Counted from the first letter of the stretch, positions 5,120 to 61,570 are shown. The stretch is DNA of 64,000 nt from Rhodoferax sp. (GCA_011391545.1 JAABQI010000112.1:357-64356); one strand, 5' to 3'. Notes: generated by a model from the sequence alone, not told the origin. Numbers and translations: made by a program.

Positions 5120-5137
5120 ATCGTCAAATTAGACTAG
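5120..5137 (-). promoter_or_regulatory. Putative LuxR/TesR box upstream of DUF1329-DUF1302
   Basis: ATCGTCAAATTAGACTAG; 21 nt to AATAAT -10-like hexamer on minus strand. Confidence 0.7.
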
Positions 5138-5287
5138 GTTGAGACCCTAGTACGAACCGCACCAGAGCGCTTTCTGAAACGCGCGAGCTTGCCCGGGAAG
5201 GCGCCCGCACCAGTTGAAGCCGCTGAAATGGAGCCCAAGCAGGTGGCGAAGGCGACCAGTTGCCGGGCAGGGAATGCAGCGCAGTTC

Positions 5288-7003
5288 TCAGTCCTGCGCG
5301 TATTCGCGCTTGAGCGTGGTCTTGAGCATTTTTCCGGCCGGATTACGCGGCAGGCTTTCACTGCGCACAAACACCCGCAGCGGCACCTTGTAGGCGGCTA
5401 GCCGCCCTGCCACATGCGACTGGACCTGCGCGGCCGTCAGCAACGCGCCGGGCGCAAGCACCACCACGGCCACCACGGCTTCGCCGGTCTGCTCGTCGGG
5501 CTGGCCAAACACCGCGGCCTCGACCAGCGCCGGATGCTGCAACAGGCAGGACTCGACCTCGGCTGCGGCAATTTTTTCTCCAGCGCGGTTGATCACGTCC
5601 TTGATGCGGTCGACCACGCGGAGCAGGCCGTCGTCGTCAAGAAGACCGATGTCGCCGGTGCGAAACCAGCCCCCGCTCAGCGCCCGGGCGCTGGCTTCAG
5701 GCTGGCCCACATAGCCCTGCATCAGGCTGACCCCGCGCAGCCACAGCTCGCCCGCCTGGCCCGGCGCCAGGTCGACACCGTCGACGTCGACCACGCGCAG
5801 TTCAATGATGGGCGACAACGGCCCGGACATCTGCGGCCGCAGCTGGAACAGCCGACCCGACGCAGCGGCGCCGACACCATTGGTTTCGGTCAGGCCAAAA
5901 CCAACGCCTGACATCGACTCTCCGCGCCGCGCCAGCACATCGTCGATGAGGCGCTGGGGCAGGCCCGCGCCACCAAAGCCGACGCCGCCCAGGCTGCCGG
6001 TCACGGCAGGGTCGTCAAAACCGGGTTCGGCCAGCAACTGCATCACCATTGACGGCGCGCCGTTGAACTGGGTGATTTTTTCGGCCTGAATCAATTGCAG
6101 CGCTTGCGCCGGATTCCAGCGGCGCATGAACACCAGCCGACGGCCATGGCGCAGCGACGCCAGCAGTTGGGCATGCAGACCGCTGACATGGAACAGGGGT
6201 ACCGCTGTCAGCGTGGTCGGCTGCAGGGCGCGCGCCATGATGGTCGCCACCAGGTCAGGCGAGGTCATCGCCGAGATGGCGCCGATGTAGTCAATGTTGT
6301 AAAGCGCCTGGCAGACCGCCTGCTGCGTCGACAGCGCACCTTTGGCCTGGCTGCTGGCGCCTGATGTGAACAGGATCAGGCCCGCATCTTCGGGCGCCAA
6401 CACGGGGGACTGGAGCGCTGGCGCGCCAGGCGCAATGAGTTCTGGCCAGGCGGCGTCACCCTCGCCCGGCGCGCCCTCGACCACCACGGCGCGACAGCCC
6501 AGACCAGCCAGGTCGGCGCCAACATGGGCAAAGCGCTCGGCATCGCAGATCAGCCAGCGTGGCTGCAGGTCGCGCAAATTGGCCAGCAACTCTTCGCGCA
6601 GCCCAAAGCTGTTGAGCGGCGCGGGCACAGCGCCCAGCAGCACCACGGCAGCAAATGCGACAGCCCATTCAGGCCGGTTACGCATCGCAATTGCCACGCA
6701 GTCACCAGCACGCAAACCATGCTCGGCCTGCAGCCGCCCGGCCAGCGCGTCGACGGCGCTGAAAAAGCGCTCGAAGGTCCAGCGATCACCCTCGTAGACC
6801 ATGAACTCGCGATCAGCATGAGCGCGGCCGGCGTTGATCAGCGCGGGCAGGTTAGGGAAGGCATGGCGGTAGGCCGGCAGGGGCTGGCCGTTGACCAGCA
6901 CCGTGTGGCGCTCAAAGGGAGCGCCCGGCGCGGTGAGCTGCTCGCGGCAGCGGGCGACCTGAACCAGCAGGTCCACAGGAGAAGCGGCGGAAGAAGAACT
7001 CAT
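5288..7003 (-). CDS. Class I adenylate-forming acyl-CoA ligase (probable steroid side-chain CoA ligase)
   Basis: FTSG P-loop, GFGLTET, GWFRTGD, DRIKDVINRAGEKI, PRNPAGK. Confidence 0.85.
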   Translation of the reverse strand: MSSSSAASPVDLLVQVARCREQLTAPGAPFERHTVLVNGQPLPAYRHAFPNLPALINAGRAHADREFMVYEGDRWTFERFFSAVDALAGRLQAEHGLRAGDCVAIAMRNRPEWAVAFAAVVLLGAVPAPLNSFGLREELLANLRDLQPRWLICDAERFAHVGADLAGLGCRAVVVEGAPGEGDAAWPELIAPGAPALQSPVLAPEDAGLILFTSGASSQAKGALSTQQAVCQALYNIDYIGAISAMTSPDLVATIMARALQPTTLTAVPLFHVSGLHAQLLASLRHGRRLVFMRRWNPAQALQLIQAEKITQFNGAPSMVMQLLAEPGFDDPAVTGSLGGVGFGGAGLPQRLIDDVLARRGESMSGVGFGLTETNGVGAAASGRLFQLRPQMSGPLSPIIELRVVDVDGVDLAPGQAGELWLRGVSLMQGYVGQPEASARALSGGWFRTGDIGLLDDDGLLRVVDRIKDVINRAGEKIAAAEVESCLLQHPALVEAAVFGQPDEQTGEAVVAVVVLAPGALLTAAQVQSHVAGRLAAYKVPLRVFVRSESLPRNPAGKMLKTTLKREYAQD

Positions 7004-7008
7004 GGTGT

Positions 7009-8148
7009 TCAGAAACCTTTCAGGCAGGCATAACGATTGCGATGGAAGACGCCATCACCCAGACAGTGTTGCAGCACGCGGGCGCGCTTGACGATCAGGC
7101 CCAAATCGAACTCGTCGGTCACGCCAATGCCCCCGTGCAGCTGAATGGCTTCGTTCATGAGCTTTTCGCACAGGTCGGAGGCGCGCCCCTTGGCCAGGCT
7201 GGCCAGCAGCGCAAGCTCGGGGTCGCCGGCGTCAATGGCAGCCAGCGCGGCGCGAACGCAGCTCTGGAGCATTTCCAGCTCGGTATAGAGGCGGGCCATG
7301 CGGTGCTGCAGGGCCTGGAAAGAGCCAATGGGCACGTCGAACTGCACCCGCTCTTTCAGATAGGACGTGGTGCGCTCGAAGGCATCGCGTGCCAGACCCA
7401 GGCCCTCGGCCGCCAGACAAACGCGGGCGCGGTCCAGCGCGGCGTCGAGCGCCTGCGCGGCGTCGCTGGCGCACTCAAGCCGCATGTCGGCAGCGACCTG
7501 CACGCCCGACAGCGTCAGGCGGGCGTGGTTGCGGCTGTCGACCAACCGGGTCGGTTGCAGACTGACGCCGGCCAGTGTGCTGTCGACCATGAACAGGCCC
7601 AAGCCCTCGTCGGTGTCCTGCGCCCCGACCACGCGCGCCACGACGATCAGCCAGGCGGAGCCAATGCCGTCGATGACAAACCATTTCTCGCCATCGAGCA
7701 CCCAGCCTGCGCCATCGCGCCGGGCACGGGTGCTGATGGCCTTGGGATCATGGCGGCCCTGCTCATCGATGGCCAGCGCCAGCAACTGCTGGCCGTCCAT
7801 CAGGCCGGGCAGCCAGCGCTGGCGCTGGGCCGCGCTGCCGGCTGCCAGCAGCAGCTCGCCGCACAGGACCACCGAGGACAGCAGGGGCAGGGCCGCCACG
7901 CTGCGCCCCATGGCCTCGAACACCGCGCCCAGGCCCTGGTAGCCCACCGCGAGCCCGCCTTCGGACTCAGGAAAAACGGCCGCCGGCCAACCAAGTTCGA
8001 CCACCTGCTGCCACAGCGCCAGCTCGTAGCCCAGCTCGGCGCGCGAGTCGCGCAGGCGGCGCTGCAGGCTCAGTGGCGACTGCGCGCTCAAAAATTCGCG
8101 GGCGCTGTCACTCAGCTGCCGTTGTTCGTCATTCAGCAAAAAACTCAT
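7009..8148 (-). CDS. Acyl-CoA dehydrogenase, small subunit of a heteromeric steroid ACAD
   Basis: RVQFDVPIGSFQALQH, QLHGGIGVT; paired with 8196-9383; start set at MSFLLN. Confidence 0.88.
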   Translation of the reverse strand: MSFLLNDEQRQLSDSAREFLSAQSPLSLQRRLRDSRAELGYELALWQQVVELGWPAAVFPESEGGLAVGYQGLGAVFEAMGRSVAALPLLSSVVLCGELLLAAGSAAQRQRWLPGLMDGQQLLALAIDEQGRHDPKAISTRARRDGAGWVLDGEKWFVIDGIGSAWLIVVARVVGAQDTDEGLGLFMVDSTLAGVSLQPTRLVDSRNHARLTLSGVQVAADMRLECASDAAQALDAALDRARVCLAAEGLGLARDAFERTTSYLKERVQFDVPIGSFQALQHRMARLYTELEMLQSCVRAALAAIDAGDPELALLASLAKGRASDLCEKLMNEAIQLHGGIGVTDEFDLGLIVKRARVLQHCLGDGVFHRNRYACLKGF

Positions 8149-17319: not shown

Positions 17320-18099
17320 TCAGGCTTGACCCGCTTTCGCGGCCGCCAGGAAGGCCGGTTTCTCGCCCCCGCCGTGCAGCAGCAGATTGGTTCCGCTCAG
17401 GTAGGCCGCGCGTGGCGAGGCCACGAACAGGCAGGCCTGGGCGATGTCGGACGGCTCGGCCATTCGGCCCGCCGGAATCGTGGCGCCGACGGCGGCAATA
17501 CCGGCCTCGTCGCCAAAATGCAAATGTGACTGCTCGGTGCGCACCAGGCCCGGGCTGACCGCTACGACGCGCACCCTGGGCGCCCACTCGACCGCCAGCG
17601 ACGACGCCAGGCTCAGCACGGCCGCCTTGGCCGCGCCATAGGCGGCCGTTCCCGGCGACGGCCGCAGCGCGCTGACACTGCCGATAAAGACAATCACGCC
17701 GCCTTCGCCCTGGGTCTGCATCACGGCATTGGCGGCCTGCGCCATGTGCAGCGCAGCCGTCAGGTTCAAGCGGATCACGCCCTCGTGAAAGCGCGGCGAC
17801 ACTGTGGCCGCATCAACAGGCGGGCTGCCGCCCGCGTTGTGCACCAGCACGTCGAGCCGGCCGTGGCTGGCGACGATCGTGCCGACCAGCGCGCGCACAG
17901 CATCGGCCTCACGCACGTCGCAGGCCATGAATTCGGCACTGCGACCGCCAACCTCAGGCAGGGTTTCGGGCTGACTGCGGGCGCACACCACCACCGTGGC
18001 GCCTTCGGCCAGAAAGCCCTCGGCAATGCCGCGCCCGATCCCCTTGGTGCCACCGGTGACCAGCACAATGCGCTGGTCGAATTCGTTTTTCTGTTTCAT
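17320..18099 (-). CDS. SDR oxidoreductase
   Basis: TGGTKGIG, NAGG, YGAAK. Confidence 0.88.
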   Translation of the reverse strand: MKQKNEFDQRIVLVTGGTKGIGRGIAEGFLAEGATVVVCARSQPETLPEVGGRSAEFMACDVREADAVRALVGTIVASHGRLDVLVHNAGGSPPVDAATVSPRFHEGVIRLNLTAALHMAQAANAVMQTQGEGGVIVFIGSVSALRPSPGTAAYGAAKAAVLSLASSLAVEWAPRVRVVAVSPGLVRTEQSHLHFGDEAGIAAVGATIPAGRMAEPSDIAQACLFVASPRAAYLSGTNLLLHGGGEKPAFLAAAKAGQA

Positions 18100-18133
18100 G
18101 GTGTCAAATTTACTGAATGGCTGGCCGCGAAGA

Positions 18134-18151
18134 TACGTCCAAAAGGACGAT
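18134..18151. promoter_or_regulatory. Putative LuxR/TesR box shared by divergent promoters
   Basis: TACGTCCAAAAGGACGAT; 21 nt to TAAATT (minus) and 21 nt to GAACAT (plus). Confidence 0.75.
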
Positions 18152-18208
18152 GTAGCGCCAGCCTCCAGAAAAGAACATCAATGGCATCATCACCAGCAGG
18201 ATTTGCGC

Positions 18209-19030
18209 ATGCCCCACGACTCTTCTCCTCCTTCTGCGGTCCATGCCCCGGACCAGGCCGGCAGCGAACTGCTGGTCGAATGCCGGGATGATGGCGTCGC
18301 CCTGGTGCGCATGAACCGGCCCCAGGCCACCAATGCGCTGAGTCTGAACCTGCAGGCGCTGCTCTCAAACGCATTCACCCGACTGGCTGCGGACCCGTCG
18401 GTGCGCGCCATCGTGCTCACGGGCGGCGACAAGGTGTTCGCCGCCGGCGGCGACATCAAGGGCCTGGAGGGCGCCGGTCCGATCGAGATCATGGAGCGCC
18501 ACACGGAGCGCGTCTGGGCGCCCATCGAGCGCTGCCCGAAACCCATCATCGCGGCGGTCTGCGGCTACGCCTATGGCGGCGGGGCCGAGCTGGCCATGCA
18601 CTGCGACATCATCCTGGCGGGCGAGGGCGCGAGCTTTTCGCAGCCCGAGATCCGCATCGGCATCATGCCCGGCATCGGCGGCACGCAGCGGTTGGTGCGC
18701 GCCGTGGGCAAGTTCAACGCCATGCGCTTGCTGCTGACCGGCAAACCGGTCAGCGCCCAGGAGGCGCGCCTGATGGGCCTGGTCAGCCAGGTGCTGCCCG
18801 ACGACCAGGTGCTGGCCGAGGCCCTGAAGATGGCGGCACTGATCGCCGCCATGCCGCCGCTGGCGGCCATGCAGATCAAGGAAGTGGTGCTGGCCGGCGT
18901 GGACGCCTCGCTGGAAACCGCGCTGATGCTCGAGCGCAAGGCCAACCAGTTGCTGTTTGCCACGCGCGACCAGAAGGAAGGCATGCAGGCCTTCATCGAG
19001 AAACGCAAACCAAAGTTCGAGGGACGATGA
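18209..19030 (+). CDS. Enoyl-CoA hydratase (crotonase family)
   Basis: FAAGGDI, GGGAELAM, PEIRIGIMPG.GGTQRL. Confidence 0.9.
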   Translation: MPHDSSPPSAVHAPDQAGSELLVECRDDGVALVRMNRPQATNALSLNLQALLSNAFTRLAADPSVRAIVLTGGDKVFAAGGDIKGLEGAGPIEIMERHTERVWAPIERCPKPIIAAVCGYAYGGGAELAMHCDIILAGEGASFSQPEIRIGIMPGIGGTQRLVRAVGKFNAMRLLLTGKPVSAQEARLMGLVSQVLPDDQVLAEALKMAALIAAMPPLAAMQIKEVVLAGVDASLETALMLERKANQLLFATRDQKEGMQAFIEKRKPKFEGR

Positions 19031-19031
19031 C

Positions 19032-20033
19032 ATGAGGAAGCGGCTTGCAGCGCTAAGCTTGATGCTGACCCTGGGCGCTGCGCTGGCGGCCAGCGTTGCC
19101 AAGGCGGAAAGCGCGCTGCGCCTGTGCCAGGCCTACAGCGGCCGGCCTGCGCCCGCCAATCAGGCCGGCGGTATCCAGCCCGGCATGGTCGCCATGCGCG
19201 GAGGCCGCTTCCTGATGGGCTCCGAGCGCTTCTACCCCGAGGAAAGTCCGCGCCGATCAGTCGAGGTCGCGCCCTTCCACATCCAGCGTCACGAGGTCAC
19301 CAACGCGCAGTTTGCCGCCTTTGCCAACAGCACCGGCTACCGCACCGTGGCCGAGAGGCCGCTCGACTCCAAGCAGTTCCCGCAGCTGGGCGAGGCCCAG
19401 CGCCGGCCCGGCTCGCTGGTGTTCCACGAGCCAACGCAGGTCAAGGGGATGGCCGACATCAGCCAGTGGTGGACCTGGACGCCTGGCGCTTCCTGGCGCG
19501 CGCCCGGCGGTCCGGGCAGCAGCCTGCGCGGCCGCGCGAACCACCCGGTGGTGCACATCGCCTTCGATGATGCAGTCGCCTACGCCCGCTGGGCCGGGCA
19601 GGACCTGCCCACCGAAACCGAATGGGAGTACGCCGCGCGCGGCGGCCTCGAAGATGCCGACTACACCTGGGGCGACGACAAGAACCGCCGCGACGACAAG
19701 GGAAAACCGATGGCCAACCACTGGCAGGGCCCGTTCCCGCTGAAGGACATGGCCGAGGACGGCCATCACGGGACCGCGCCGGTGGGGTGCTTCCCGGCCA
19801 ACGGCTACGGCCTGTTCGACATGGCCGGCAACGCCTGGGAGCTGACCAAGGACGATTACCTCGACCCGCGCAACCCCTATGGCGGCATGAAGGTCGCCAA
19901 AGGCGGCAGCTTCCTCTGCTCCGACGATTTCTGCGGTCGCTACCGGCCCGCGGCGCGCACGCCGCATGGCATTGACACCGGCATGCAGCACGTGGGGTTT
20001 CGCACCGTGTGGCGCGCGCCCGCCCGCCCCTGA
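19032..20033 (+). CDS. Formylglycine-generating enzyme (SUMF1/FGE) family protein with signal peptide
   Basis: HEVTNAQF, LPTETEWEYAARGG, NGYGLFDMAGN.WE, KGGSFLCSDDFCGRYRPAAR. Confidence 0.9.
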   Translation: MRKRLAALSLMLTLGAALAASVAKAESALRLCQAYSGRPAPANQAGGIQPGMVAMRGGRFLMGSERFYPEESPRRSVEVAPFHIQRHEVTNAQFAAFANSTGYRTVAERPLDSKQFPQLGEAQRRPGSLVFHEPTQVKGMADISQWWTWTPGASWRAPGGPGSSLRGRANHPVVHIAFDDAVAYARWAGQDLPTETEWEYAARGGLEDADYTWGDDKNRRDDKGKPMANHWQGPFPLKDMAEDGHHGTAPVGCFPANGYGLFDMAGNAWELTKDDYLDPRNPYGGMKVAKGGSFLCSDDFCGRYRPAARTPHGIDTGMQHVGFRTVWRAPARP

Positions 20034-28273: not shown

Positions 28274-28291
28274 ATCGTCCAATCAGACTAA
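28274..28291 (-). promoter_or_regulatory. Putative LuxR/TesR box for the tesA2-tesH-tesI operon
   Basis: ATCGTCCAATCAGACTAA; 21 nt to GAATAT. Confidence 0.72.
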
Positions 28292-28312: not shown

Positions 28313-28330
28313 CTAGTCCGTCTGAGGGAT
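28313..28330 (+). promoter_or_regulatory. Degenerate LuxR/TesR box for the tesA1-tesDEFG operon
   Basis: CTAGTCCGTCTGAGGGAT; 21 nt to CAAGCT. Confidence 0.5.
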
Positions 28331-28381
28331 TCGATGGGGGACGGCACCCGGCAAGCTTGCGTCCCTGCATCAGGAGACCCC

Positions 28382-33113: not shown

Positions 33114-33290
33114 TCACCAGCGCCCTGACATCAGCGTCTGCTGCCAGCATGCGGACGAAAAGGGCGACGCAAGCGCCATTGCGTCGGAGTGCGGATCAGG
33201 CGATCCGGTCAAATAATAGCTCGCCAGCAGCGATGCAAACAGCGCGATGGCAGTTGTGGCGGCGAGAGCCAGGCGTGAACGACGATTCAT
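33114..33290 (-). CDS. Hypothetical 58-aa small membrane or exported protein
   Basis: CAGGAGA RBS before ATG; MNRRSR followed by a hydrophobic helix; own TesR-like box upstream. Confidence 0.55.
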   Translation of the reverse strand: MNRRSRLALAATTAIALFASLLASYYLTGSPDPHSDAMALASPFSSACWQQTLMSGRW

Positions 33291-33398: not shown

Positions 33399-33416
33399 AT
33401 CATCCATTTGGACTAG
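33399..33416 (-). promoter_or_regulatory. Putative LuxR/TesR box upstream of the small ORF, overlapping the MFS stop codon
   Basis: ATCATCCATTTGGACTAG; 20 nt to AATACT. Confidence 0.62.
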
Positions 33417-36842: not shown

Positions 36843-36860
36843 ATCGTCCAAGTAGACTAA
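36843..36860 (-). promoter_or_regulatory. Putative LuxR/TesR box for the aldolase-hydratase-MFS operon
   Basis: ATCGTCCAAGTAGACTAA; 21 nt to CACAAT. Confidence 0.75.
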
Positions 36861-36954: not shown

Positions 36955-36972
36955 GTCGTCCTTTCGGACGAT
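36955..36972 (+). promoter_or_regulatory. Putative LuxR/TesR box for the YCF48-RND operon
   Basis: GTCGTCCTTTCGGACGAT; 20 nt to AAGAAT. Confidence 0.7.
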
Positions 36973-38060: not shown

Positions 38061-40447
38061 CCAACTACCATACCGCATCGCGCTTCAGGGCGCTGATCTC
38101 CCGCCTCGCCCATCAACTGATTGTCTGGCGCAACACGATTGCCGTGGTCACCACCCTGATCACCCTGCTGCTTGGGGCTTCGGCGCTGCGCACCCATCTG
38201 GATGCCGGCTTCAACAAGCTGGTTCCCCTGCGCCACGACTACATGGCGGCCTTCCTGCAGCATTCCGGCACCTTCTCGGGCGCCAACCGGGTGCTGATCA
38301 ATGTCCGCTGGAAGGGCCAGGGCGACATCTACAACGAGGAGTTCTTGAAGGCACTGCGCGGCGTCACCGACGAGGTGTTCTTCACACCCGGTGTGAACCG
38401 GGCCCAAGTCTATTCTCTATTCACGCCGAACGTGCGCTACATCGAGATCACCGAGAACGGTTTTGTCGGCGAGGTCATCATCCCCTCGCGCTTCAGCCCG
38501 AACGCAGAGGGACTCGCGAAGGTGCGCTCCAATGTGGCCAAGTCGGGCCAGATCGGGCGGCTCGTCAGCAACGACCTGAAAGGCGCCATGGTCCGTGCCG
38601 ATCTGCTTGAAATCGATCCGCAGACGGGCAAGCGGCTTGACTACGGCAAAGTCGCCAAGAAGCTGGAAATGGTCCGCGCCCAGTTTGCCAGCAAGGACAT
38701 CGAGATCAACATCGTCGGTTTTGCCAAGGTGCTGGGTGACGTGATGGAGGGCCTGATCACTGTCATTAGCTTCTTCGGTCTGGCCTTTGTCATCACGGCG
38801 ATTCTGCTGTGGCTTTATTCGCGTTCTGTGAACCTGACGGTGCTGGCCCTGCTGGTGGCCCTGTTGCCGGTGATCTGGCTGCTCGGTCTGTTGCCGCTGG
38901 GCGGCTTCGGCATCGACCCGATGTCGATACTGGTGCCCTTCCTGGTGTTCTCGATCGGCGTGTCGCACGCGGTGCAGATGACCAACGCCTGGAAGCAGGA
39001 CGTGCGCGCCGGCCTAAGCTCCGAGGACGCCGCCGAGAGCGCCTTTCGCAAGCTGGCAGTGCCCGGCACCATTGCCCTGCTCACCAACGCGCTGGGCTTC
39101 ATGGTCATCATGCTGATCGACATTCCGATCGTGCATGAGCTGGGCATGACGGCTTGCCTGGGCGTGTTGCTCATGATCATCACCAACAAGGTGATGCTGC
39201 CTGTGATCCTGTCGCGCTTGCGGCTCGAACCCGCGGCCCTGGGACGCACCGACGGCATAACCAAGCTGCGTGACCACTGGTGGCTCCTTTCGGCGCTGGC
39301 ACAGCCACGCCCGGCGCTGATCACGCTGGCGGTGTCGCTGGCGTTGCTAGCCGGCGGCACCGTCATGTCGCGCCACCTGCTGACCGGCGACATCGGCGCC
39401 GGCGCGCCCGAGCTGCGCGCCGACTCGCGTTACAACCGCGACAACGACCGTATCATCCACGACTACTCGGTCGGCATGGATGTGCTGTCGGTCTATGCCG
39501 AGGCCACCGATCTGGAGGAAGCCTGCCTGAACTGGCCGGTGATGAATGGCATCGAACGTTTTGACCTGGCCATGCGCGGCGTTGACGGCGTGCGCTCGGT
39601 CACCACCGTGGCGGGCTTGGCCAAGCTCGCCGCCAGCGGCAACAACGAGGGCAATCCGCGCTGGGCCGCGCTGCAGCGCACCGAGGCGGCGCTGCGCACC
39701 GGATCCAAGGCGGCCAACCCGGAACTGGGCCTGAACACCGAAGGCTGCAAGATAATTCATCTGCAGCTTTTCCTGAAGGACCATGAGGGCGCTACGCTCA
39801 AGCACGTGGTGGGCGAGGTGCAGAAGTTCATCGACGCCGACAAGACCCCCAACCTGCGCTTTCGCCTGGCCGGCGGCAACGCCGGCGTGGCGGCAGCCAC
39901 GAACGACGCGGTCGAGCAGGCCGAAGTGCAAATGCTGGCGGCGATCTTCGGTGCCATCACACTGCTGTGCTGGCTGACCTTCCGCAGCTGGCGCGCCGTG
40001 CTGTGCATCATCGTACCGCTGACGCTGGTGTCCATCCTGTGCAACGCGCTGATGGCCATGCTGGGCATCGGCCTGAAGGTGGCCACGCTGCCGGTGATCG
40101 CCATGGGCGTGGGCGTGGGCGTGGACTACGGCATCTACTTGTATGAAAGCCTGCAGCATGAGATCGAGCACCGTGGCGCCTCGCTGCGCGAAGCCTTCTA
40201 CCAGGCGCTGCGCCAGCGCGGCACGGCCGCAGTCTTCACGGGTGTCACGATGTCCATCGGTGTGGGTACCTGGGCCTTCTCGGCGCTCAAGTTCCAGGCC
40301 GACATGGGGGTGCTTCTGGCCTTCATGTTCCTGGTCAACATGCTGGGCGCGGTGTTCCTGCTGCCGGCCATGGCCTGCTGGCTGGGTGTCGGGGCGGTGC
40401 GCAAGCCGGCCGTGTTCCCCTACGTGCCCGCGAAGGAAATGTCCTGA
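38057..40447 (+). CDS. RND/MMPL-family transporter
   Basis: Two TM blocks with periplasmic domains; SIGVSHAVQ, GVGVDYGIY. Confidence 0.9.
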   Translation: MTNYHTASRFRALISRLAHQLIVWRNTIAVVTTLITLLLGASALRTHLDAGFNKLVPLRHDYMAAFLQHSGTFSGANRVLINVRWKGQGDIYNEEFLKALRGVTDEVFFTPGVNRAQVYSLFTPNVRYIEITENGFVGEVIIPSRFSPNAEGLAKVRSNVAKSGQIGRLVSNDLKGAMVRADLLEIDPQTGKRLDYGKVAKKLEMVRAQFASKDIEINIVGFAKVLGDVMEGLITVISFFGLAFVITAILLWLYSRSVNLTVLALLVALLPVIWLLGLLPLGGFGIDPMSILVPFLVFSIGVSHAVQMTNAWKQDVRAGLSSEDAAESAFRKLAVPGTIALLTNALGFMVIMLIDIPIVHELGMTACLGVLLMIITNKVMLPVILSRLRLEPAALGRTDGITKLRDHWWLLSALAQPRPALITLAVSLALLAGGTVMSRHLLTGDIGAGAPELRADSRYNRDNDRIIHDYSVGMDVLSVYAEATDLEEACLNWPVMNGIERFDLAMRGVDGVRSVTTVAGLAKLAASGNNEGNPRWAALQRTEAALRTGSKAANPELGLNTEGCKIIHLQLFLKDHEGATLKHVVGEVQKFIDADKTPNLRFRLAGGNAGVAAATNDAVEQAEVQMLAAIFGAITLLCWLTFRSWRAVLCIIVPLTLVSILCNALMAMLGIGLKVATLPVIAMGVGVGVDYGIYLYESLQHEIEHRGASLREAFYQALRQRGTAAVFTGVTMSIGVGTWAFSALKFQADMGVLLAFMFLVNMLGAVFLLPAMACWLGVGAVRKPAVFPYVPAKEMS

Positions 40448-40817
40448 TGAGCCTGGAACAGCTGCTGCTGGAACACGAGCTGCAGTGCGTTCTCGGTCGC
40501 TACGCCCAACTCTGCGACGAACGCGACTGGCCCCTGATCGACCAGATATTCAGCGCCGATGCCACGGCGAGTTATGGCGGCTGGGCCCTGGCCGACCGCA
40601 CCGCCATACTCAAGATGCTGCGCGACAACCTCGGCGGCTGCGGGCAGCGCATCGCGGTGCAGGCGAGAAAAAACTGGAAACTTACGAATGCATGGGCTCC
40701 TACCACGACCGCTGGGTGCGAGCCGCGGAAGGCTGGCGCATCCTGCACCGCGCCATGGTCGTGAAGTTCGAATTTGGCAACCGCAAGCTGCTGGGCCCGG
40801 CCACTGCGCCAGACTAG
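40447..40817 (+). pseudogene. NTF2/SnoaL-like (BaiE-like) protein disrupted by an internal deletion and frameshift
   Basis: N-half RYAQLCDERDW..LGGCG is in one frame; C-half AAHRG..GSYHDRWVR..GWRI.HR is in another; central HLLGN-type segment absent. Confidence 0.75.
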
Positions 40818-41974
40818 TCGGTGTCGCTCAGCCAGGCCACGCTATTCAGGAAAATACGCACCAGTTCGGTCTGGCGGCGCACGCCGGTCTTGGAAAAAAT
40901 CGAACGCAGGTGCGCCCGCCCCGTGTTGCGCCGGATACCCAGGACCTCGGAGGCCTCTTCCAGCGACAGGCCATTGGCCAGCTGGATCGCCAGCGCGGTT
41001 TCGGCCGGCGTCAGGTGGAACAGCTGCTGGGCCAGGCGCACCGGCGGATCGACGCGCCCCTCGGTGTCACGCAAGAAGATGGCCACGCTGGGGCGCTGTT
41101 TGCCCTCGGTCCACTGATCGGAGGAGATACTCTGCACGATCAGCCCCCAGGCCAGCCGGCCAGACGGCCGACTCACGGACATCGCCTCGCTCATCGACGG
41201 CTTGGCGGCGGGGGCATGGACCATGGCGTCGCGCACCAGGCTTTGCAGCTTGCGGTTGTCGTTGGCGTAGGAGGCCTCGAGCTGCTTGCCGACCACACGC
41301 AGACCGTCCTTCATTTCCAGGATGGCGGTCGCCGCCGGATTGCACTCAAGCACCTGGCGGTCCTGGTCGAGCACCACCACGCCGACCATCAATTGCGCCA
41401 TCGCATGGCTGTAGAGTGTGCTGACCTTACGGTCCTCGTTGATCGACAGGTGCAGGTTCAGGGCCCGCTTGATATGGGGAATCAGCAGGCGGCAAAAATC
41501 GATTTCCGCTCGGGAGAAGGCCTCTGCGCTTTCGGGGCGGGTGATGCGCAACCCATAGATGCCGCCATTACGCGTCGAAATGTCGGCGGCAAGCACATGG
41601 AAAACGCCCTGCGGCTCGCAGTAGCTGCGGTAATAGGTCGAGGCGCGCCAGTCCTTTTCAGAGATCACGTCGCCGATCGTGACCAGCTGATCCGGCACCA
41701 TGCCCGCAAAGGGGCTCATCGCGATGTAGGGGTTGCCGGGATCCAGGTTGGGCTGGTCGTTGCCGGCCGAGACGATCAAGCCGACGTCTTCGGCGGTCTC
41801 GGTGCGAACAATGAGCGAGGCATAGTTGGCAGAAAACCCGGCCCGGATGGCCTCCAGGCAGGTGACCCATCCCGCCTCATCCAGGGCAGCGTCGTAAATC
41901 GCACCCAGAATATGGCTCAGAAATTCCTGCGACATGCTCATGCCTGCCAGGGACGGGGGTAGAGAATCTTGCAT
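40814..41974 (-). CDS. tesR: LuxR-type steroid-responsive activator (TesR/TeiR-like), sensor/PAS region plus LuxR HTH
   Basis: IYDAALD..W; C-terminal LTPAE..GLSLEEA..RNT.RAHLRSIFSKTGVRRQTELV; position after scdJ as in C. testosteroni; start uncertain. Confidence 0.82.
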   Translation of the reverse strand: MQDSLPPSLAGMSMSQEFLSHILGAIYDAALDEAGWVTCLEAIRAGFSANYASLIVRTETAEDVGLIVSAGNDQPNLDPGNPYIAMSPFAGMVPDQLVTIGDVISEKDWRASTYYRSYCEPQGVFHVLAADISTRNGGIYGLRITRPESAEAFSRAEIDFCRLLIPHIKRALNLHLSINEDRKVSTLYSHAMAQLMVGVVVLDQDRQVLECNPAATAILEMKDGLRVVGKQLEASYANDNRKLQSLVRDAMVHAPAAKPSMSEAMSVSRPSGRLAWGLIVQSISSDQWTEGKQRPSVAIFLRDTEGRVDPPVRLAQQLFHLTPAETALAIQLANGLSLEEASEVLGIRRNTGRAHLRSIFSKTGVRRQTELVRIFLNSVAWLSDTD

Positions 41975-44528: not shown

Positions 44529-44585
44529 GGGTCAACATCCATCGTGATAATTCCATCGATGATGCCCGTCGGGCGCCCGCCCAAC

Positions 44586-44603
44586 ATCGTCTGCTTGGAC
44601 GAT
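44586..44603 (-). promoter_or_regulatory. Putative LuxR/TesR box for scdG-scdD-scdJ(-tesR)
   Basis: ATCGTCTGCTTGGACGAT; 21 nt to CATCAT. Confidence 0.72.
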
Positions 44604-46915: not shown

Positions 46916-48472
46916 CTACAGCACCGGACGCCGATCTTTCCAGGGCGCGGCCTGCTCCAGCTGCGCGGCAAGCGCCAGCAGCGTGGCTTCGGCACCGAAC
47001 CGTCCGGCGAACTGCGCGCCGATGGGCATGCCGGCAGCGTTCCAGTGCAGCGGCACCGACATGGCCGGATGGCCGCTCATATTGAACATCGCGGTGAACG
47101 GCGACGCCGTCATCGCCACCTTGACGAAGTCCTCGTAAGCCTGGTCTAGCGACATGGCGCCAAGTTTCGGCGCTGGCGCCGCCGTGACTGGCGACAAGAT
47201 CAGGTCGTAATCTGCCAGGAACAGGTCCAGCACCCGTGCCGCCTGGTCGAACACATTGCGGGCAACAAAAGCCTGCTCGGCGCTGTAGCCGCGTGCCAGC
47301 TGCAGGCTGCGCCAATTCAACGGCTCGAATTCGTCCTCGCGGGCGGCTCGACCTATAGCCTGTTCACGCACCTTGACTGTGGCCAGCATGCCAGCCGCAG
47401 TTGCCACGCCCATACTGGCGAACATGTCGCCAATCGCGAGCTGCGGCGCGGCGATTTCGACGCGGTGGCCAAGCGACTCGCACAGGCGCGCAGCCTGGTG
47501 CGCGGCGTCCAGGCAGTCCGGATGGACCGGGGCACCGAAAGGGTTTTTCGTCATCAGGGCAATGCGCAGCGGGCGCGGCGGCTTTGCGATGGCGTCCATC
47601 AAACTGCCCGCTTGCGGCCCGGTGCGGCTGCCCGCCTCGGGGCCCTGCGAGAGTTGCAGCAGCAAGGCGCTGTCGCGCACGCTGCGACTGATAACGTTAT
47701 GCGCCGACAGGCCCAGCCAGCCTTCCAGCATCTTCGGGCCCATGGGCACCAGGCCACGGCTGGGCTTGAGGCCGAACAAGCCGCAATGCGAGGCCGGGAT
47801 GCGGATCGAACCACCACCGTCGCTGGCATGCGCCGCAGGCAGGATGCCGGCCGCCACCGCCGCAGCGGCACCGCCCGACGAGCCGCCCGCGCTGAAGGCC
47901 TGGTTCCAGGGATTGCGGGTCAGGCCGAACAAACGCGACTCGGTGGTGGCGGTCTGGCCAAATTCCGGCGTGGTTGTTTTGGCGAAAATATTCAGCCCGG
48001 CGGCACGGTAGCGCTGCACCAGTGTCGAATCATGATCGGCCACGGCGTCCTTGAAGAAGGCGCAGCCCTGCGTCGTGATGGTGCCCTTCATGGCGAGCCC
48101 CAGATCCTTGAGCGCGAACGGCACACCGGCCATCGGCGCCTCCTTGGACAACCGCTCGCGTTCAGCCCGGCCCAGGTTTGAGAGCCGCTGCGCCGCCTCC
48201 CGCGCCTGGTCAAAGTGGCGCAGGGCAACCGCATTGATTGCGCTGCGCGCCTCGGTGCGCGCAATGGCCGCCTCCAGCGCATCAAGCGCGGTCAGCTGCC
48301 CGACGCGAATCTGGGACGCCAGCTCGACGGCATCGAAGCGCTCATACTCAGCCAGCGGGAGCACGGCAGCATGTGCGCCCTGCCCCGTCATGCCAAAGGA
48401 TACCGCGAGACCCGCCGCAGCGCCCGCTTTCAAAAAGTCGCGCCGTGCCGTCTGAGCTTCCGTCGCGCCCAT
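46916..48472 (-). CDS. Tat-exported amidase-signature enzyme (candidate conjugated bile-salt amidase)
   Basis: ARRDFLK Tat motif and AHA cleavage site; PFALKD, GGSSGG, SDGGGSIRIP. Confidence 0.85.
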   Translation of the reverse strand: MGATEAQTARRDFLKAGAAAGLAVSFGMTGQGAHAAVLPLAEYERFDAVELASQIRVGQLTALDALEAAIARTEARSAINAVALRHFDQAREAAQRLSNLGRAERERLSKEAPMAGVPFALKDLGLAMKGTITTQGCAFFKDAVADHDSTLVQRYRAAGLNIFAKTTTPEFGQTATTESRLFGLTRNPWNQAFSAGGSSGGAAAAVAAGILPAAHASDGGGSIRIPASHCGLFGLKPSRGLVPMGPKMLEGWLGLSAHNVISRSVRDSALLLQLSQGPEAGSRTGPQAGSLMDAIAKPPRPLRIALMTKNPFGAPVHPDCLDAAHQAARLCESLGHRVEIAAPQLAIGDMFASMGVATAAGMLATVKVREQAIGRAAREDEFEPLNWRSLQLARGYSAEQAFVARNVFDQAARVLDLFLADYDLILSPVTAAPAPKLGAMSLDQAYEDFVKVAMTASPFTAMFNMSGHPAMSVPLHWNAAGMPIGAQFAGRFGAEATLLALAAQLEQAAPWKDRRPVL

Positions 48473-48473
48473 G

Positions 48474-49352
48474 TCAGCTGCCCCAGACTTTTTGTGCCGG
48501 CACCGCCTCGGCAAGCAATTGGTCGATCACCGGGCCGAGTTCGGCCGGCTCCCAGCGCGCGCCCTTGTCGCGGGTGGCGTCGGTGCGCCAACCGTCGCCA
48601 AGCGAGATGCGCCCGCCCTGGCTCTCGAAAACCTTGCCGGTCACATGCGAAGAGGCAAGGCTGCCGAGCCAGACCACCAGCGGTGCGACATTCTCGGCGG
48701 CCCAGGCGTCAAAGCTGCCGTCCTGCGGCGCCTTGACCACGTCGGGCATGGCGCTCTCGGTCATTGAGGTCCGTGCGGCCGGCGCCAGCGCGTTGACGGT
48801 CACGCCATAACGACCCATTTCGGCGGCCTGCACCAGCGTGAGCGAGGCAATGCCACCTTTGGCGGCGGAATAATTGGACTGGCCGATCGAACCTTGCAAG
48901 CCGGCGCCCGAGCTGGTGTTGATGATGCGCGCGTCGATCTTTTTGCCCGCCTTGGCCGCATCGCGCCAGCGGCGGCCCAGAATATTGGCCAGACAGAAAT
49001 GCCCCTTGAGGTGCACGCGCATGACCTGGTCCCAATCGTCCTCGCTGAGGCTGATGAACATGCGATCGCGCAGAATGCCGGCGTTGTTGACCAGCACGTG
49101 CACTTCACCGTAGGCCGCCACAGCCGCATCGACGATGGACTGGGCGCCCGCCATGGTGGTGATGTCGCCCTGGTTGGCGATGGCCCGGCCGCCGGCAGCG
49201 ACCGCCTCGGCCGCGACCGCCTCGGCGGCCTCAAGCCGGATGTCGTTGACGACGACACTGGCGCCCTCGGCGGCAAAAGCCAGCGCATAGGCGCGACCCA
49301 GGCCGCCGCCGGCACCGGTGATGATGACAGTGCGTTGATTGCAGATAGGCAT
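48474..49352 (-). CDS. scdE: SDR 3-hydroxyacyl-CoA dehydrogenase
   Basis: TGAGGGLG, NNAGILRD, GQSNYSAAK; synteny. Confidence 0.75.
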   Translation of the reverse strand: MPICNQRTVIITGAGGGLGRAYALAFAAEGASVVVNDIRLEAAEAVAAEAVAAGGRAIANQGDITTMAGAQSIVDAAVAAYGEVHVLVNNAGILRDRMFISLSEDDWDQVMRVHLKGHFCLANILGRRWRDAAKAGKKIDARIINTSSGAGLQGSIGQSNYSAAKGGIASLTLVQAAEMGRYGVTVNALAPAARTSMTESAMPDVVKAPQDGSFDAWAAENVAPLVVWLGSLASSHVTGKVFESQGGRISLGDGWRTDATRDKGARWEPAELGPVIDQLLAEAVPAQKVWGS

Positions 49353-58132: not shown

Positions 58133-58202
58133 TGTTGGTTCTCCTGGCTTTGCACAAATGAAGCCCATAGGACTGATTTTGGTCAGCACACCCCCTGGGA
58201 GC

Positions 58203-58220
58203 ATCGTCCGTTGAGACTAA
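58203..58220 (-). promoter_or_regulatory. Putative LuxR/TesR box for the tesB-scd operon
   Basis: ATCGTCCGTTGAGACTAA; 21 nt to CAAAAT. Confidence 0.75.
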
Positions 58221-60754: not shown

Positions 60755-60765
60755 GATCATGCGCC

Positions 60766-61500
60766 TCACAGAAAGGCGCTGCCGCCGTTGACCGCCAGGT
60801 TCTGGCCGGTGACGAAGCCGCTGTCCTCGCTGGCCAGGAACAGCGCCGCGCTGGCGATGTCTTCGGGCTCGGCCATGCGGCCCATGGGAACGCCGGCGAT
60901 GATGGCGTCGGTCCATTCCTGGGGAATGCTCTGCATCATCGGCGTGTTGGTCGGGCCCGGCACCAGTGTGTTGACACGGATGCCGCTCTTGGCCAGCTCC
61001 TTGGCCATGCTGCGGGTCAGGCCCATCAGTGCCGCCTTGGAAGCGCAGTAATGCGCCGGACCGTCGCCGGACGCCGCCGCCGTGCTGGCGACATTGATGA
61101 TCACGCCGCGCGTGCCGGCCTTTTGCATGGCGCGCACCGCCTGGCGGGCGCAATAGAAGGCGCCGTTGAGGTTGACGTTGATCACCCGGGCCCAGGTCTC
61201 GTCGGGGATGTCGGCAAAGGCATCCACCGAGCCGATACCGGCATTATTCACCAGCACATCAACACGGCCGAAGGTGGCCACCACCTCGTCGACGACGGCC
61301 GCCACGGCGGCGCTGTCGGCCACGTTGAGGCTGCGCGCGATGCTTTGGCCCCCCGCGTCGGCCAGGGTCTGCTGCGCCGCCTCGAGGTTGAGGTCGAGCG
61401 CCACGACGATGGCGCCTTCTTGCGCAAAGCGACGCGCGATAGCCCGCCCCATGCCCTGCCCCGCGCCGGTCACCAGCGCCACTTTGTCTTTCAGTCTCAT
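60766..61500 (-). CDS. steA: SDR, 12alpha-HSD-like
   Basis: TGAGQGMG, NNAG, HYCASK; synteny. Confidence 0.68.
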   Translation of the reverse strand: MRLKDKVALVTGAGQGMGRAIARRFAQEGAIVVALDLNLEAAQQTLADAGGQSIARSLNVADSAAVAAVVDEVVATFGRVDVLVNNAGIGSVDAFADIPDETWARVINVNLNGAFYCARQAVRAMQKAGTRGVIINVASTAAASGDGPAHYCASKAALMGLTRSMAKELAKSGIRVNTLVPGPTNTPMMQSIPQEWTDAIIAGVPMGRMAEPEDIASAALFLASEDSGFVTGQNLAVNGGSAFL

Positions 61501-61552
61501 CTTCAACTCCTTGGTAATGGGCCAAAGCATAGGCAGAGTCAGGCGCGAAACC

Positions 61553-61570
61553 ATCGTCCAACAAGACTAC
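61553..61570 (-). promoter_or_regulatory. Putative LuxR/TesR box for steABCD
   Basis: ATCGTCCAACAAGACTAC; 21 nt to TATGCT. Confidence 0.75.

What the first reader, a model, noticed from the sequence alone, without database searches (positions are those of the whole stretch)
5120..61570. Cluster-wide 18-bp operator at a fixed -42.5 position: candidate TesR/TeiR steroid box defining a whole regulon
Seen: ten promoter-region copies of a quasi-palindrome. Plus-strand sequences: 5120 ATCGTCAAATTAGACTAG; 18134 TACGTCCAAAAGGACGAT; 28274 ATCGTCCAATCAGACTAA; 28313 CTAGTCCGTCTGAGGGAT; 33399 ATCATCCATTTGGACTAG; 36843 ATCGTCCAAGTAGACTAA; 36955 GTCGTCCTTTCGGACGAT; 44586 ATCGTCTGCTTGGACGAT; 58203 ATCGTCCGTTGAGACTAA; 61553 ATCGTCCAACAAGACTAC. 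The GACGAT-like half faces the gene. Each copy is followed after 20-21 nt by an NANNNT hexamer (AATAAT, TAAATT/GAACAT, GAATAT, CAAGCT, AATACT, CACAAT, AAGAAT, CATCAT, CAAAAT, TATGCT). Known: LuxR-family class II activators bind about 18-20-bp boxes centred near -42.5, overlapping -35. Inference: this is the binding site of the TesR/TeiR-like regulator at 40814-41974. I do not recall this site being defined, but that needs a literature check.
Basis: partly seen in the sequence, partly recalled or inferred. Interest (0 to 1): 0.9.

Follow-up and report, generated by a model that had tools for sequence, protein, structure and literature searches.

The report
Steroid-regulon activator box, TesR-type
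An 18-20-bp inverted repeat sits at one fixed distance in front of every operon of this steroid-degradation gene cluster and of its counterparts in Comamonas testosteroni and other bacteria. It is very probably the so-far undescribed DNA docking site of the steroid-pathway activator TesR/TeiR.

Summary
All ten 18-mers are in the window exactly as written. A weight matrix built from them finds 11 positions of at least 19 bits in the 3.06-Mb genome. All 11 lie on the two steroid contigs, which make up 3% of the genome.

Each box is followed at 20-21 nt by a -10-like hexamer: 10 of 10 sites, against a 9.4% intergenic background. No -35 element is present, which puts the box centre at about -42.5.

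The same box precedes the same orthologous genes in C. testosteroni ATCC 11996, in Alicycliphilus denitrificans, in about 50 further Comamonadaceae loci, and in a genome of another family. These genes include tesB, hsaA/hsaB, kshA, the scd operon ending in tesR, DUF1329-DUF1302, BNR-RND and MFS transporters. Stacking 134 unique sites leaves only two conserved features, the dyad and the -10.

The only transcription factor found on the steroid contigs is a full-length TesR/TeiR orthologue (65% identity). It has a GAF/PAS sensor and a GerE-type HTH. Its recognition helix is invariant, and a symmetric dimer is modelled.

Binding by TesR is inferred, not shown, and no transcription start data could be obtained. 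I found no description of this site in the searchable literature. This scan has reached the same conclusion before on at least five other genomes. I class it as a new member of a known kind (a class-II LuxR-type activator box), of solid moderate-to-high interest.

The parts
5120..5137 (-). Box 1 (CTAGTCTAATTTGACGAT on the minus strand), promoter of the DUF1329-DUF1302 operon
   Evidence: 27.3 bits. -10 AATAAT at 5093-5098, ATG at 4977. A box precedes the DUF1329 orthologues in A. denitrificans and C. testosteroni.
18134..18151 (+). Box 2 (TACGTCCAAAAGGACGAT), shared by two divergent promoters: enoyl-CoA hydratase on the plus strand and the 13-gene side-chain operon starting with the SDR gene at 18099 on the minus strand
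   Evidence: 21.8 bits. Proximal -10 GAACAT at 18173-18178, ATG at 18209. Distal -10 TAAATT at 18107-18112, 7 nt before the ATG at 18099, so that transcript would be leaderless. The identical box is at the same gene pair in A. denitrificans and C. testosteroni.
28274..28291 (-). Box 3 (TTAGTCTGATTGGACGAT), promoter of the hsaA/tesA2-kstD-...-fadD3 operon
   Evidence: 28.6 bits, the best site. -10 GAATAT at 28247-28252, ATG at 28170. Conserved in L007, L014, L015, L017, L049 and A. denitrificans.
28313..28330 (+). Box 4 (CTAGTCCGTCTGAGGGAT), weak variant, promoter of hsaB/tesA1-tesDEFG
   Evidence: 13.6 bits, leave-one-out -0.4. The variant GAGGGAT/GAAGGAT is conserved at the same place in other genomes. 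-10 CAAGCT at 28352-28357, ATG at 28382.
33399..33416 (-). Box 5 (CTAGTCCAAATGGATGAT), promoter of a small 58-aa ORF at 33114-33290(-). It overlaps the stop codon of the MFS gene 33413-34558.
   Evidence: 25.9 bits. -10 AATACT at 33373-33378. ATG at 33290 with an AGGAGA ribosome-binding site. Box plus small ORF are conserved in L012, L018 and L021.
36843..36860 (-). Box 6 (TTAGTCTACTTGGACGAT), promoter of the thiolase-like / MaoC / MFS operon
   Evidence: 27.4 bits. -10 CACAAT at 36816-36821, ATG at 36785. Conserved in C. testosteroni, A. denitrificans and many tesR loci.
36955..36972 (+). Box 7 (GTCGTCCTTTCGGACGAT), promoter of the BNR/Ycf48-like - RND(HAE3) - SnoaL operon
   Evidence: 21.9 bits. 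-10 AAGAAT at 36993-36998, ATG at 37056. A box precedes the BNR and RND orthologues in A. denitrificans and C. testosteroni.
44586..44603 (-). Box 8 (ATCGTCCAAGCAGACGAT, near-perfect palindrome), promoter of the SDR - MaoC hydratase - thiolase - tesR unit (probable positive autoregulation)
   Evidence: 19.4/21.7 bits. -10 CATCAT at 44559-44564, ATG at 44528. Box and -10 are conserved with a free spacer in 34 genomes, including C. testosteroni ATCC 11996.
58203..58220 (-). Box 9 (TTAGTCTCAACGGACGAT), promoter of the tesB/hsaC - scd (ring C/D) operon
   Evidence: 25.3 bits. -10 CAAAAT at 58176-58181, ATG at 58132. TTAGTCTCAA(C/T)GGACGAT precedes tesB in A. denitrificans and C. testosteroni, and CTAGTCCCATCGGACGAT does so in the other-family genome G247.
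61553..61570 (-). Box 10 (GTAGTCTTGTTGGACGAT), promoter of the SDR-SDR-SnoaL-OYE operon
   Evidence: 24.5 bits. -10 TATGCT at 61526-61531, ATG at 61500. A box precedes the orthologous SDR in A. denitrificans and C. testosteroni.
40814..41974 (-). tesR/teiR orthologue: GAF/PAS-like sensor, PAS and a GerE(LuxR)-type HTH. It is the candidate protein that binds the box.
   Evidence: Pfam PAS and GerE, both weak. 64-65% identity over the full length to C. testosteroni ATCC 11996. Single copy in the genome. Recognition helix invariant in 26 orthologues. AF2 model and Foldseek hits. Dimer model.
33114..33290 (-). Small conserved ORF (58 aa, N-terminal hydrophobic segment, C-terminal SWQxTLMxxRW) that forms its own box-driven transcription unit
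   Evidence: tblastn hits, each directly downstream of a box, in L021 (E 7e-9), L012 and L018.

Best explanation
The box is a cis-regulatory site of 18 bp core, or 20 bp as the dyad C-ATCGTCC-N4-GGACGAT-G. I propose that a dimer of the cluster's own one-component regulator TesR/TeiR (GAF/PAS sensor plus GerE/LuxR-type HTH) binds it in the presence of a steroid-derived inducer and activates transcription as a class-II activator.

The box ends 21 nt (rarely 20) upstream of a -10 hexamer. This puts its centre near -42.5, where the promoter-proximal half GGACGATG occupies the place of the missing -35 element.

Every transcription unit of the 64-kb cluster starts with such a box-plus-10 module. There are about 12 units, including the one that contains tesR itself, which implies positive autoregulation. 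A single protein would therefore switch on the whole pathway: side-chain, ring A/B and ring C/D degradation, transporters, and a small unknown ORF.

Shown here: existence, specificity, geometry and conservation of the box; orthology and domain make-up of TesR.
Inferred: the TesR-box contact, the activating direction, the start sites and the inducer.
For: Specificity. There are 11 genome positions of at least 19 bits, all on the two steroid contigs, which are 3% of the genome. Sites outside the training set lie before MFS/ALDH, a second MFS gene, an acyl-CoA ligase and kshA, and between ETF and an OYE-type flavoprotein.

Geometry. 10 of 10 window sites have NANNNT at 20-21 nt, against a 9.4% background. 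When 134 unique sites from about 60 genomes are aligned on the box, the only other information peaks are A (72%) and T (67%) at hexamer positions 2 and 6, 21 nt downstream. The spacer is G+C-rich and unconserved, and there is no -35.

Phylogenetic footprint. In the scd-tesR promoter of 34 genomes the box and -10 are kept and everything between them is free.

Orthologous placement. The same genes carry the box in A. denitrificans (14 sites in 160 kb) and C. testosteroni ATCC 11996 (13 sites), and in another family, genome G247.

The regulator.
- It is the only transcription factor detected among about 75 genes on the box-bearing contigs.
- It is single copy.
- It is 65% identical to TeiR of ATCC 11996.
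- The helix RRNTARAHLRSIFSKTGVRRQ is invariant in 26 orthologues. It is nearly unchanged (SRNTARAHLRSTFSKTGVTRQ) in G247 paralogues that are only 33-40% identical overall yet sit among the same boxes.
- The model shows a sensor plus a 4-helix GerE HTH, with Foldseek hits to RhlR, SdiA, TraR, QscR, VqmA and EL222.

Dimer. The homodimer model supports binding but does not show it. The score is 0.63 against a best control of 0.00. That mark was reached by 20 of 30 proteins solved as pairs of one chain and by 1 of 23 solved as single chains. The runs agree in at least 53% of contacts, and the partner's pLDDT is at least 72. The interface is symmetric and includes the last HTH helix.

Genetics from the literature. 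TesR/TeiR is required for induction of most steroid-degradation genes of C. testosteroni, and teiR is itself testosterone-inducible (PMC6678751, PMC8700777). This matches the box in front of the tesR-containing unit.
Against: No binding experiment and no mapped transcription start exist for any of these promoters. The RNA-seq data available to me were assembled contigs and gave no 5' ends.

The GerE Pfam hit is below the curated cut-off (20.4 against 23.5 bits), and no solved GerE protein is found by sequence. The HTH assignment therefore rests on the model, whose mean pLDDT is 71.

Work cited in the reviews describes TeiR as a polar, membrane-associated kinase acting through phosphorylation (PMC6678751). 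If that were the whole story, TeiR need not contact these promoters directly.

The genome is only 79% complete, so another regulator could be encoded on missing DNA.

Box and regulator are both nearly invariant within Comamonadaceae, so there is little true co-variation to tie one to the other.

Genome G096 has a cluster of related boxes with only a distant TesR-like gene, on another contig.
Confidence: 0.75

Rival explanations
1. The box is real and regulatory but is bound by a different transcription factor. This would be either an unlinked activator or a repressor of TetR, IclR or GntR type whose gene lies elsewhere. TesR would then act upstream, for example as the sensor/kinase described by Gohler et al.
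For: No direct evidence ties TesR to the DNA. The genome is 79% complete. The larger C. testosteroni mega-cluster is reported to hold several other regulators, including HsdR, RepA/B, TetR and another LuxR (PMC6678751). G096 has related boxes without a close TesR nearby. The box overlaps the -35 region, where a repressor could also act.
Against: No other DNA-binding protein was found among the genes of the window and C215. The promoters lack a -35, and the box keeps a single rigid phase to the -10 in 100 of 134 sites. This is typical of activator-dependent promoters and not needed for repression. In 61 loci of other genomes TesR orthologues lie within 10 kb of boxes in about 50. The recognition helix is conserved wherever the box is conserved, even at 33-40% overall identity. 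The genetics shows positive control (PMC6678751).
Confidence: 0.14
2. TesR binds the box but mainly as a repressor or dual regulator, occluding the -35 region until inducer releases it. The promoters would then be intrinsically active.
For: The site overlaps the core promoter. Some GerE-family proteins repress from such positions. The conserved TG at box positions 18-19 could serve as a residual -35 TTG at 17-18 nt from the -10.
Against: Disruption of tesR/teiR abolishes induction rather than de-repressing it (reviews). The -10 elements are weak (CAAGCT, CATCAT, TATGCT) and no -35 consensus exists, so unassisted activity is unlikely.
Confidence: 0.08
3. The repeats are non-regulatory: chance similarity, a REP-like element or a remnant of a mobile element.
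For: The half-sites ATCGTC and GACGAT are common codon strings in G+C-rich genomes. Loose patterns therefore hit coding DNA in most Comamonadaceae genomes.
Against: The full matrix is specific to steroid promoters. The sites are intergenic, oriented, phased to a -10 and conserved in front of orthologous genes across genera and families, while flanks and spacer diverge. A pattern with the wrong spacing is not enriched.
Confidence: 0.01

Closest known systems
lux box / tra box: sites of the AHL-responsive activators LuxR, TraR and LasR (GerE-type HTH)
   Same: An 18-20-bp dyad centred near -42.5 that replaces the -35 element. It is presumably bound by a dimer of a ligand-sensing protein with a C-terminal four-helix GerE HTH. 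One box is present per promoter, and boxes are sometimes shared by or paired at divergent promoters.
   Different: The sequence is unrelated: ATCGTCC-N4-GGACGAT against, from memory, ACCTGTAGGATCGTACAGGT or ATGTGCAGATCTGCACAT. The regulator has no autoinducer-binding domain but a GAF/PAS-like plus PAS sensor. The signal is a steroid or a catabolite of one, not an AHL. The regulon is a 60-120-kb catabolic pathway.
TesR (C. testosteroni TA441) / TeiR (ATCC 11996), LuxR-type positive regulator of testosterone degradation
   Same: The window's regulator is its full-length orthologue (65% identity, same position at the end of the scd gene row). The box is present in ATCC 11996 before tesB, before the scd-teiR unit and before other steroid operons.
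   Different: In the literature I could read, TesR/TeiR is defined only genetically and as a steroid-binding kinase at the cell pole. No operator, footprint or promoter architecture is given. Here the DNA target and the regulon are predicted.
KstR and KstR2 operators of the actinobacterial cholesterol regulons
   Same: A short palindrome repeated in front of most operons of a steroid catabolic gene set. It defines a regulon and is conserved across genera.
   Different: KstR and KstR2 are TetR-type repressors whose operators overlap the promoters without fixed phasing, and induction is by release. The sequences, protein family and logic (repression against activation) all differ.
VqmA (PAS plus LuxR-type HTH) and EL222 (LOV plus LuxR-type HTH)
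   Same: One-component regulators in which a PAS-type sensor is fused to a GerE HTH. They dimerise to bind a dyad and activate transcription. Both are among the Foldseek hits of the TesR model.
   Different: TesR has an additional N-terminal GAF/PAS-like module, a different ligand class, and a much larger regulon.

Membership tests
Class-II (lux-box-type) activator site | Inverted repeat of about 18-20 bp | tested here: met
   Dyad C-ATCGTCC-N4-GGACGAT-G seen in 134 unique sites. The palindromic forms ATCGTCCnnnnGGACGAT are common.
Class-II (lux-box-type) activator site | Fixed position overlapping the -35 region (centre about -41.5 to -42.5), with a poor or absent -35 hexamer | tested here: inconclusive
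   The distance to the predicted -10 is rigid, at 21 nt (10 of 10 window sites and 100 of 134 sites elsewhere), and no -35 is seen. However, start sites are predicted and not mapped, and the RNA-seq contigs gave none.
Class-II (lux-box-type) activator site | Bound by a dimeric GerE/LuxR-type HTH protein that activates transcription | not testable with these tools
   Indirect only: the sole regulator in the cluster has a GerE-type HTH; a dimer model passes its controls (0.63 against 0.00); positive control is known genetically in C. testosteroni (PMC6678751).
AHL quorum-sensing LuxR family (sensu stricto) | N-terminal autoinducer-binding domain (PF03472) | tested here: not met
   Pfam finds PAS and GerE only. 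The model shows GAF/PAS-like plus PAS modules. The system works like a LuxR/lux-box pair but is not a member of the AHL-receptor family.
TesR/TeiR regulon of Comamonas-type steroid degradation | The regulator is orthologous to TesR/TeiR and sits at the end of the tesB-scd gene row | tested here: met
   64-65% identity over residues 14-384 to the ATCC 11996 gene. The gene order SDR-MaoC-thiolase-tesR with the box upstream is the same in both.
TesR/TeiR regulon of Comamonas-type steroid degradation | Genes known to need TesR/TeiR for induction carry the site in C. testosteroni | tested here: met
   In ATCC 11996 the box lies before tesB, the scd-teiR unit, the thiolase-like/BNR pair, the hydratase/SDR pair, DUF1329, MFS/ALDH and a TeiR paralogue. 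[quoted passage not shown] The tesA/tesH region of ATCC 11996 was not among the stretches I fetched.
TesR/TeiR regulon of Comamonas-type steroid degradation | Expression of the box-bearing units is steroid-induced and tesR-dependent in this organism | not testable with these tools
   The genome is an uncultured MAG with no expression data.

The most novel reading that the evidence does not exclude
One conserved 20-bp box read directly by TesR-family one-component sensors defines the complete aerobic steroid-catabolic regulon across several families of Pseudomonadota.

This would have three consequences:
- TesR/TeiR would be a classical DNA-binding class-II activator rather than a membrane kinase relay.
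- The box could be used as a genome-wide probe to discover unrecognised steroid genes. Candidates here are the 58-aa ORF, the DUF1329-DUF1302 and BNR-RND envelope systems, and several MFS transporters.
- Related boxes (GGATGAT or GGAGGAT halves, TTCGTC forms) paired with diverged recognition helices would mark paralogous regulons for other alicyclic substrates.
Probability: 0.55. Interest if true: 0.72.

Novelty: new member of a known kind. Interest (0 to 1): 0.62.

Why it matters
Reviews up to 2021 call the regulation of steroid and bile-acid degradation in Proteobacteria 'largely unknown' (PMC8399759). This is despite the pathway itself being mapped gene by gene and TesR/TeiR having been identified in 2004.

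A defined operator with a fixed promoter architecture would have several uses:
- It makes the mechanism directly testable by EMSA, footprinting, box-mutant reporters and ChIP.
- It gives a sequence-only way to delimit the regulon in any genome or MAG, and to pick out uncharacterised members such as transporters, envelope systems and a small ORF.
- It provides parts for steroid biosensors and inducible expression.
- It would settle whether TeiR acts on DNA or only as a kinase.

Tried and rejected
1. Transcription start evidence. I found RNA-seq runs holding the C. testosteroni tesB promoter region and laid four of them. All are assembled contigs spanning the whole 6 kb in one piece, so they give no information on starts, strand or induction.

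2. A mistyped pattern with a 7-nt instead of 6-nt gap missed the known site and was not enriched. It is useful only as an accidental negative control.

3. Loose IUPAC patterns across genomes (TCGTC-N6-GACGAT with one mismatch; TMGTCYNNNNNGACGATG in 151 family genomes). They hit coding DNA in most G+C-rich genomes (0-11 per genome), because ATCGTC and GACGAT are frequent codon strings. Raw counts therefore cannot serve as a presence/absence test. The reversed-pattern control of the tool underestimates this background. TesR-positive genomes did have the highest or clustered counts (G009 with 21, G000 with 13).

4. A profile search of the TesR alignment against PDB sequences gave only a spurious hit.

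5. Loci of plus or minus 1.5 kb around distant TesR homologues (23-32% identity) were too short to say whether they have boxes. A few show related dyads.

6. I could not read Pruneda-Paz 2004, nor Linares 2008 or Gohler 2008. A site described only in those papers would have escaped me.

7. SDR 60766-61503 is not the orthologue of the solved C. testosteroni 3beta/17beta-HSD, which is not among the top PDB hits. I therefore could not link box 10 to the beta-hsd promoter studied in the older literature.

Full report
**What is in the window.** The window is a 65.6% G+C stretch of contig C1 of a 3.06-Mb, 318-contig, 79%-complete Comamonadaceae MAG. The nearest relatives of its regulator gene are Limnohabitans and Polaromonas MAGs.

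Family searches show an almost uninterrupted steroid or bile-acid degradation cluster:
- side-chain genes (CasG-like CoA ligase, ACAD pairs, ChsH2-like, Ltp-type thiolase);
- FadD3, a KshB-like reductase and two KstD-type flavoproteins;
- HsaA/TesA2, HsaB/TesA1, TesD, TesE, TesF and TesG;
- TesB/HsaC followed by the ring C/D (scd/ipd-type) genes;
- an orthologue of 3alpha-HSD/CR (E 6e-113 to 1FJH) and ETF;
- envelope and transport genes (DUF1329, DUF1302, BNR/Ycf48-like, RND-HAE3, MFS).

The only regulator is the gene at 40814-41974(-).

**Checking the observation.** All ten 18-mers are present exactly as written. A consensus pattern with up to two mismatches occurs 12 times against 1.7 expected, and none of 100 shuffles reached 12.

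Turned so that the downstream gene is on the right, the sites read yTAGTCynnnnGGACGAT, with the promoter-proximal half nearly invariant.

A weight matrix from the ten sites was run over the whole genome. All 11 positions scoring at least 19 bits are on C1 or on C215, a second steroid contig. Together these make up 3% of the genome. The hits outside the training set are independent confirmations. They lie in front of:
- an MFS/ALDH divergent pair;
- a second MFS transporter;
- an acyl-CoA ligase and kshA (two back-to-back boxes);
- the gap between the ETF genes and an OYE/pyridine-nucleotide-disulphide flavoprotein, just beyond the window end.

Site 28313 is weak by the matrix (leave-one-out -0.4 bits). 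Its unusual proximal half (GAGGGAT) recurs at the same place before hsaB in other genomes, so it is a genuine low-affinity variant.

**Geometry.** NANNNT follows the box after 21 nt (eight sites) or 20 nt (two sites). This is 10 of 10, against 9.4% of intergenic positions (P about 5e-11). Only 2 of 10 have it on the distal side.

One of those two is real. Box 18134 has TAAATT 21 nt to its left, seven bases before the ATG of the SDR gene that heads the 13-gene side-chain operon. One box therefore serves two divergent promoters, one of them apparently leaderless.

I then collected 134 non-identical sites from about 60 genomes and stacked them on the box. Apart from the dyad, which extends to 20 bp through C at position 0 and G at position 19, the only information in 100 nt is A (72%) and T (67%) at positions 2 and 6 of a hexamer starting 21 nt after the box. 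The spacer is G+C-rich and unconserved, and no -35 appears.

Start codons with good Shine-Dalgarno sequences follow 51-142 nt after the box.

Read this way, every transcription unit of the window begins with a box. There are about 12 units. The remaining gaps without one are short intra-operon gaps or convergent gene ends, apart from an unannotated stretch at 1128-1867 that I did not examine.

**Conservation.** The regulator protein retrieved 61 loci from other Comamonadaceae and relatives, and about 50 of them have matrix hits at syntenic positions.

For the promoter of the SDR-MaoC-thiolase-tesR unit, 34 different genomes keep ATCGTCC-N4-GGACGATG and a CATCAT/CACCAT/GAAGAT hexamer 21 nt later. 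The 21 nt between them, and the flanks, differ freely.

I fetched 160 kb of Alicycliphilus denitrificans and 240 kb of C. testosteroni ATCC 11996 and found 14 and 13 sites respectively. In both genomes these lie before tesB, the SDR orthologous to 60766, the scd-tesR unit, thiolase-like and BNR/RND genes, the hydratase/SDR pair, DUF1329 and MFS/ALDH. A. denitrificans also has them before hsaA/hsaB, kshA, ETF/OYE and DUF1302. C. testosteroni also has one before a TeiR paralogue.

In a genome of another family (G247), the TesR-like proteins are only 33-40% identical. The same box still precedes tesB, a divergent TesR-like gene, kstD, DUF1302, SDRs and an ACAD.

**Who binds it.** The gene at 40814-41974 is 64-65% identical over its full length to teiR of ATCC 11996 and occupies the same place in the gene row. 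It is single copy. No other DNA-binding protein was detected among the genes of the window or C215.

Pfam sees PAS and a sub-threshold GerE domain. An AlphaFold model from 26 orthologues (mean pLDDT 71) shows an N-terminal GAF/PAS-like module, a PAS domain and a C-terminal four-helix bundle. Foldseek returns phytochrome GAF/PAS modules and the ligand-sensing LuxR-type regulators RhlR, SdiA, TraR and QscR, as well as VqmA and EL222. No 19-residue window reaches the usual hydropathy threshold for a membrane helix (maximum 1.53).

The recognition helix RRNTARAHLRSIFSKTGVRRQ is invariant in 26 orthologues of 58-87% identity. It is nearly unchanged in the G247 paralogues despite 33-40% overall identity. 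Homologues at 23-29% identity have different helices.

A homodimer model supports binding but does not show it. It scores 0.63 against a best control of 0.00. That mark was reached by 20 of 30 proteins solved as pairs of one chain and by 1 of 23 solved as single chains. The runs agree in at least 53% of contacts, and pLDDT is at least 72. The interface is symmetric, running through the N-terminal and central helices and the last HTH helix, which fits a dyad site.

Reviews state that TesR/TeiR is required for induction of most steroid genes and is itself testosterone-inducible (PMC6678751, PMC8700777). This matches the box in front of the unit that contains tesR.

**What remains open.** No experiment connects TesR to this DNA, and no start site is mapped. 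The public RNA-seq data that I could lay were assembled contigs spanning the whole region.

The older literature describes TeiR as a polar membrane-associated kinase. I could not read those papers, and a site reported only there would have escaped me. In the library I could search, no operator, footprint or motif for TesR/TeiR is described. This includes a 2026 comparative preprint on TA441, and reviews from 2019 and 2021 that call the regulation 'largely unknown'.

The main rival is a different, unlinked regulator. It is weakened by four observations: the absence of any other transcription factor on the box-bearing contigs, the activator-type architecture, the constant neighbourhood of tesR and boxes, and the conserved recognition helix. 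It is not excluded (about 0.14).

**Relation to earlier notes of this scan.** The scan had already reported the same or a closely related box in at least five other genomes, with the same reading. These were a Cupriavidus necator cluster, a plasmid-borne island, marine bacteria and a Binatia island. These notes are unchecked AI leads. I treated them as such and repeated the key tests independently on this genome, C. testosteroni, Alicycliphilus and G247. The present window is a particularly complete example, with about 12 units and 13-15 sites, but it is not the scan's first sighting.

**Verdict.** The system works like a LuxR/lux-box class-II activation module. It is not a member of the AHL-receptor family, because its sensor is of GAF/PAS type. 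I class it as a new member of a known kind. My confidence in the TesR assignment is 0.75 and my interest score is 0.62.

Noticed in passing
window 33114-33290 (-), with box 33399-33416: A 58-aa ORF has its own box-plus-10 promoter and an AGGAGA ribosome-binding site. It has N-terminal basic residues and a hydrophobic segment, and a conserved C-terminal SWQxTLMxxRW. ORF and box together are conserved in Polaromonas, Simplicispira and a Giesbergeria MAG (L012, L021, L018). The function is unknown. It is a regulon member that gene callers would probably miss.
   Followed up: partly
window 18099-18134: The divergent promoter on the distal side of box 18134 places its -10 (TAAATT, 18107-18112) seven bases before the ATG of the SDR gene heading the 13-gene side-chain operon. 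That transcript would be leaderless. The same box-to-ATG distance (35-36 nt) is kept in A. denitrificans and C. testosteroni.
   Followed up: partly
window 1868-4977 (-) and 37056-40447 (+): DUF1329-DUF1302 and BNR/Ycf48-like-RND(HAE3) are box-driven units here, in A. denitrificans and in C. testosteroni, which has two DUF1329 copies, each with a box. They are candidates for a steroid uptake or efflux system of the cell envelope within the regulon.
   Followed up: partly
L082 (C. testosteroni ATCC 11996, G001:C15:~15.3-18.8 kb): C. testosteroni carries a second TeiR-like gene (56% identity, recognition helix KPNTARAHLRSIFSKTGVRRQ) on another contig. A palindromic box (ATCGTCTGATTTGACGAT) lies upstream of it, which suggests a cross- or auto-regulated pair of paralogues.
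   Followed up: no
L087-L090 (G096:C168:~101.9-154.1 kb): Five related boxes (TTCGTCyyTTCnGACGAT, 18-24 bits) lie in an island whose acyl-CoA ligase, thiolase and ACAD genes are only 27-55% identical to the steroid genes. No tesB, hsaA or kshA is present. Only a 28%-identical TesR-like gene exists, on another contig. This is possibly a paralogous regulon for another alicyclic substrate.
   Followed up: partly
L114:1448, L120:3893, L112:2695: Next to distant TesR-family genes (23-29% identity) there are palindromes with altered halves (ATCATCCAAATGGATGAT, ATCCTCCGATCGGAGGAT, TTCATCTATATTGATGAT). These could be material for a co-variation test of recognition helix against half-site.
   Followed up: no
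window 61616-62389 (-): This gene is a clear orthologue of C. testosteroni 3alpha-HSD/carbonyl reductase HsdA (E 6e-113 to PDB 1FJH). Here it has no box of its own and lies directly downstream of the ETF alpha and beta genes. It is probably transcribed from the box at C1:64603, just beyond the window end.
   Followed up: partly
window 46916-48514 (-), 18957-20033 (+); L002:517-2169: An amidase sits inside the tesB-scd operon, an FGE-sulfatase-like gene follows the box-driven hydratase, and a sulfatase is on C215. This hints that conjugated or sulfated bile salts or steroids are among the substrates.
   Followed up: no
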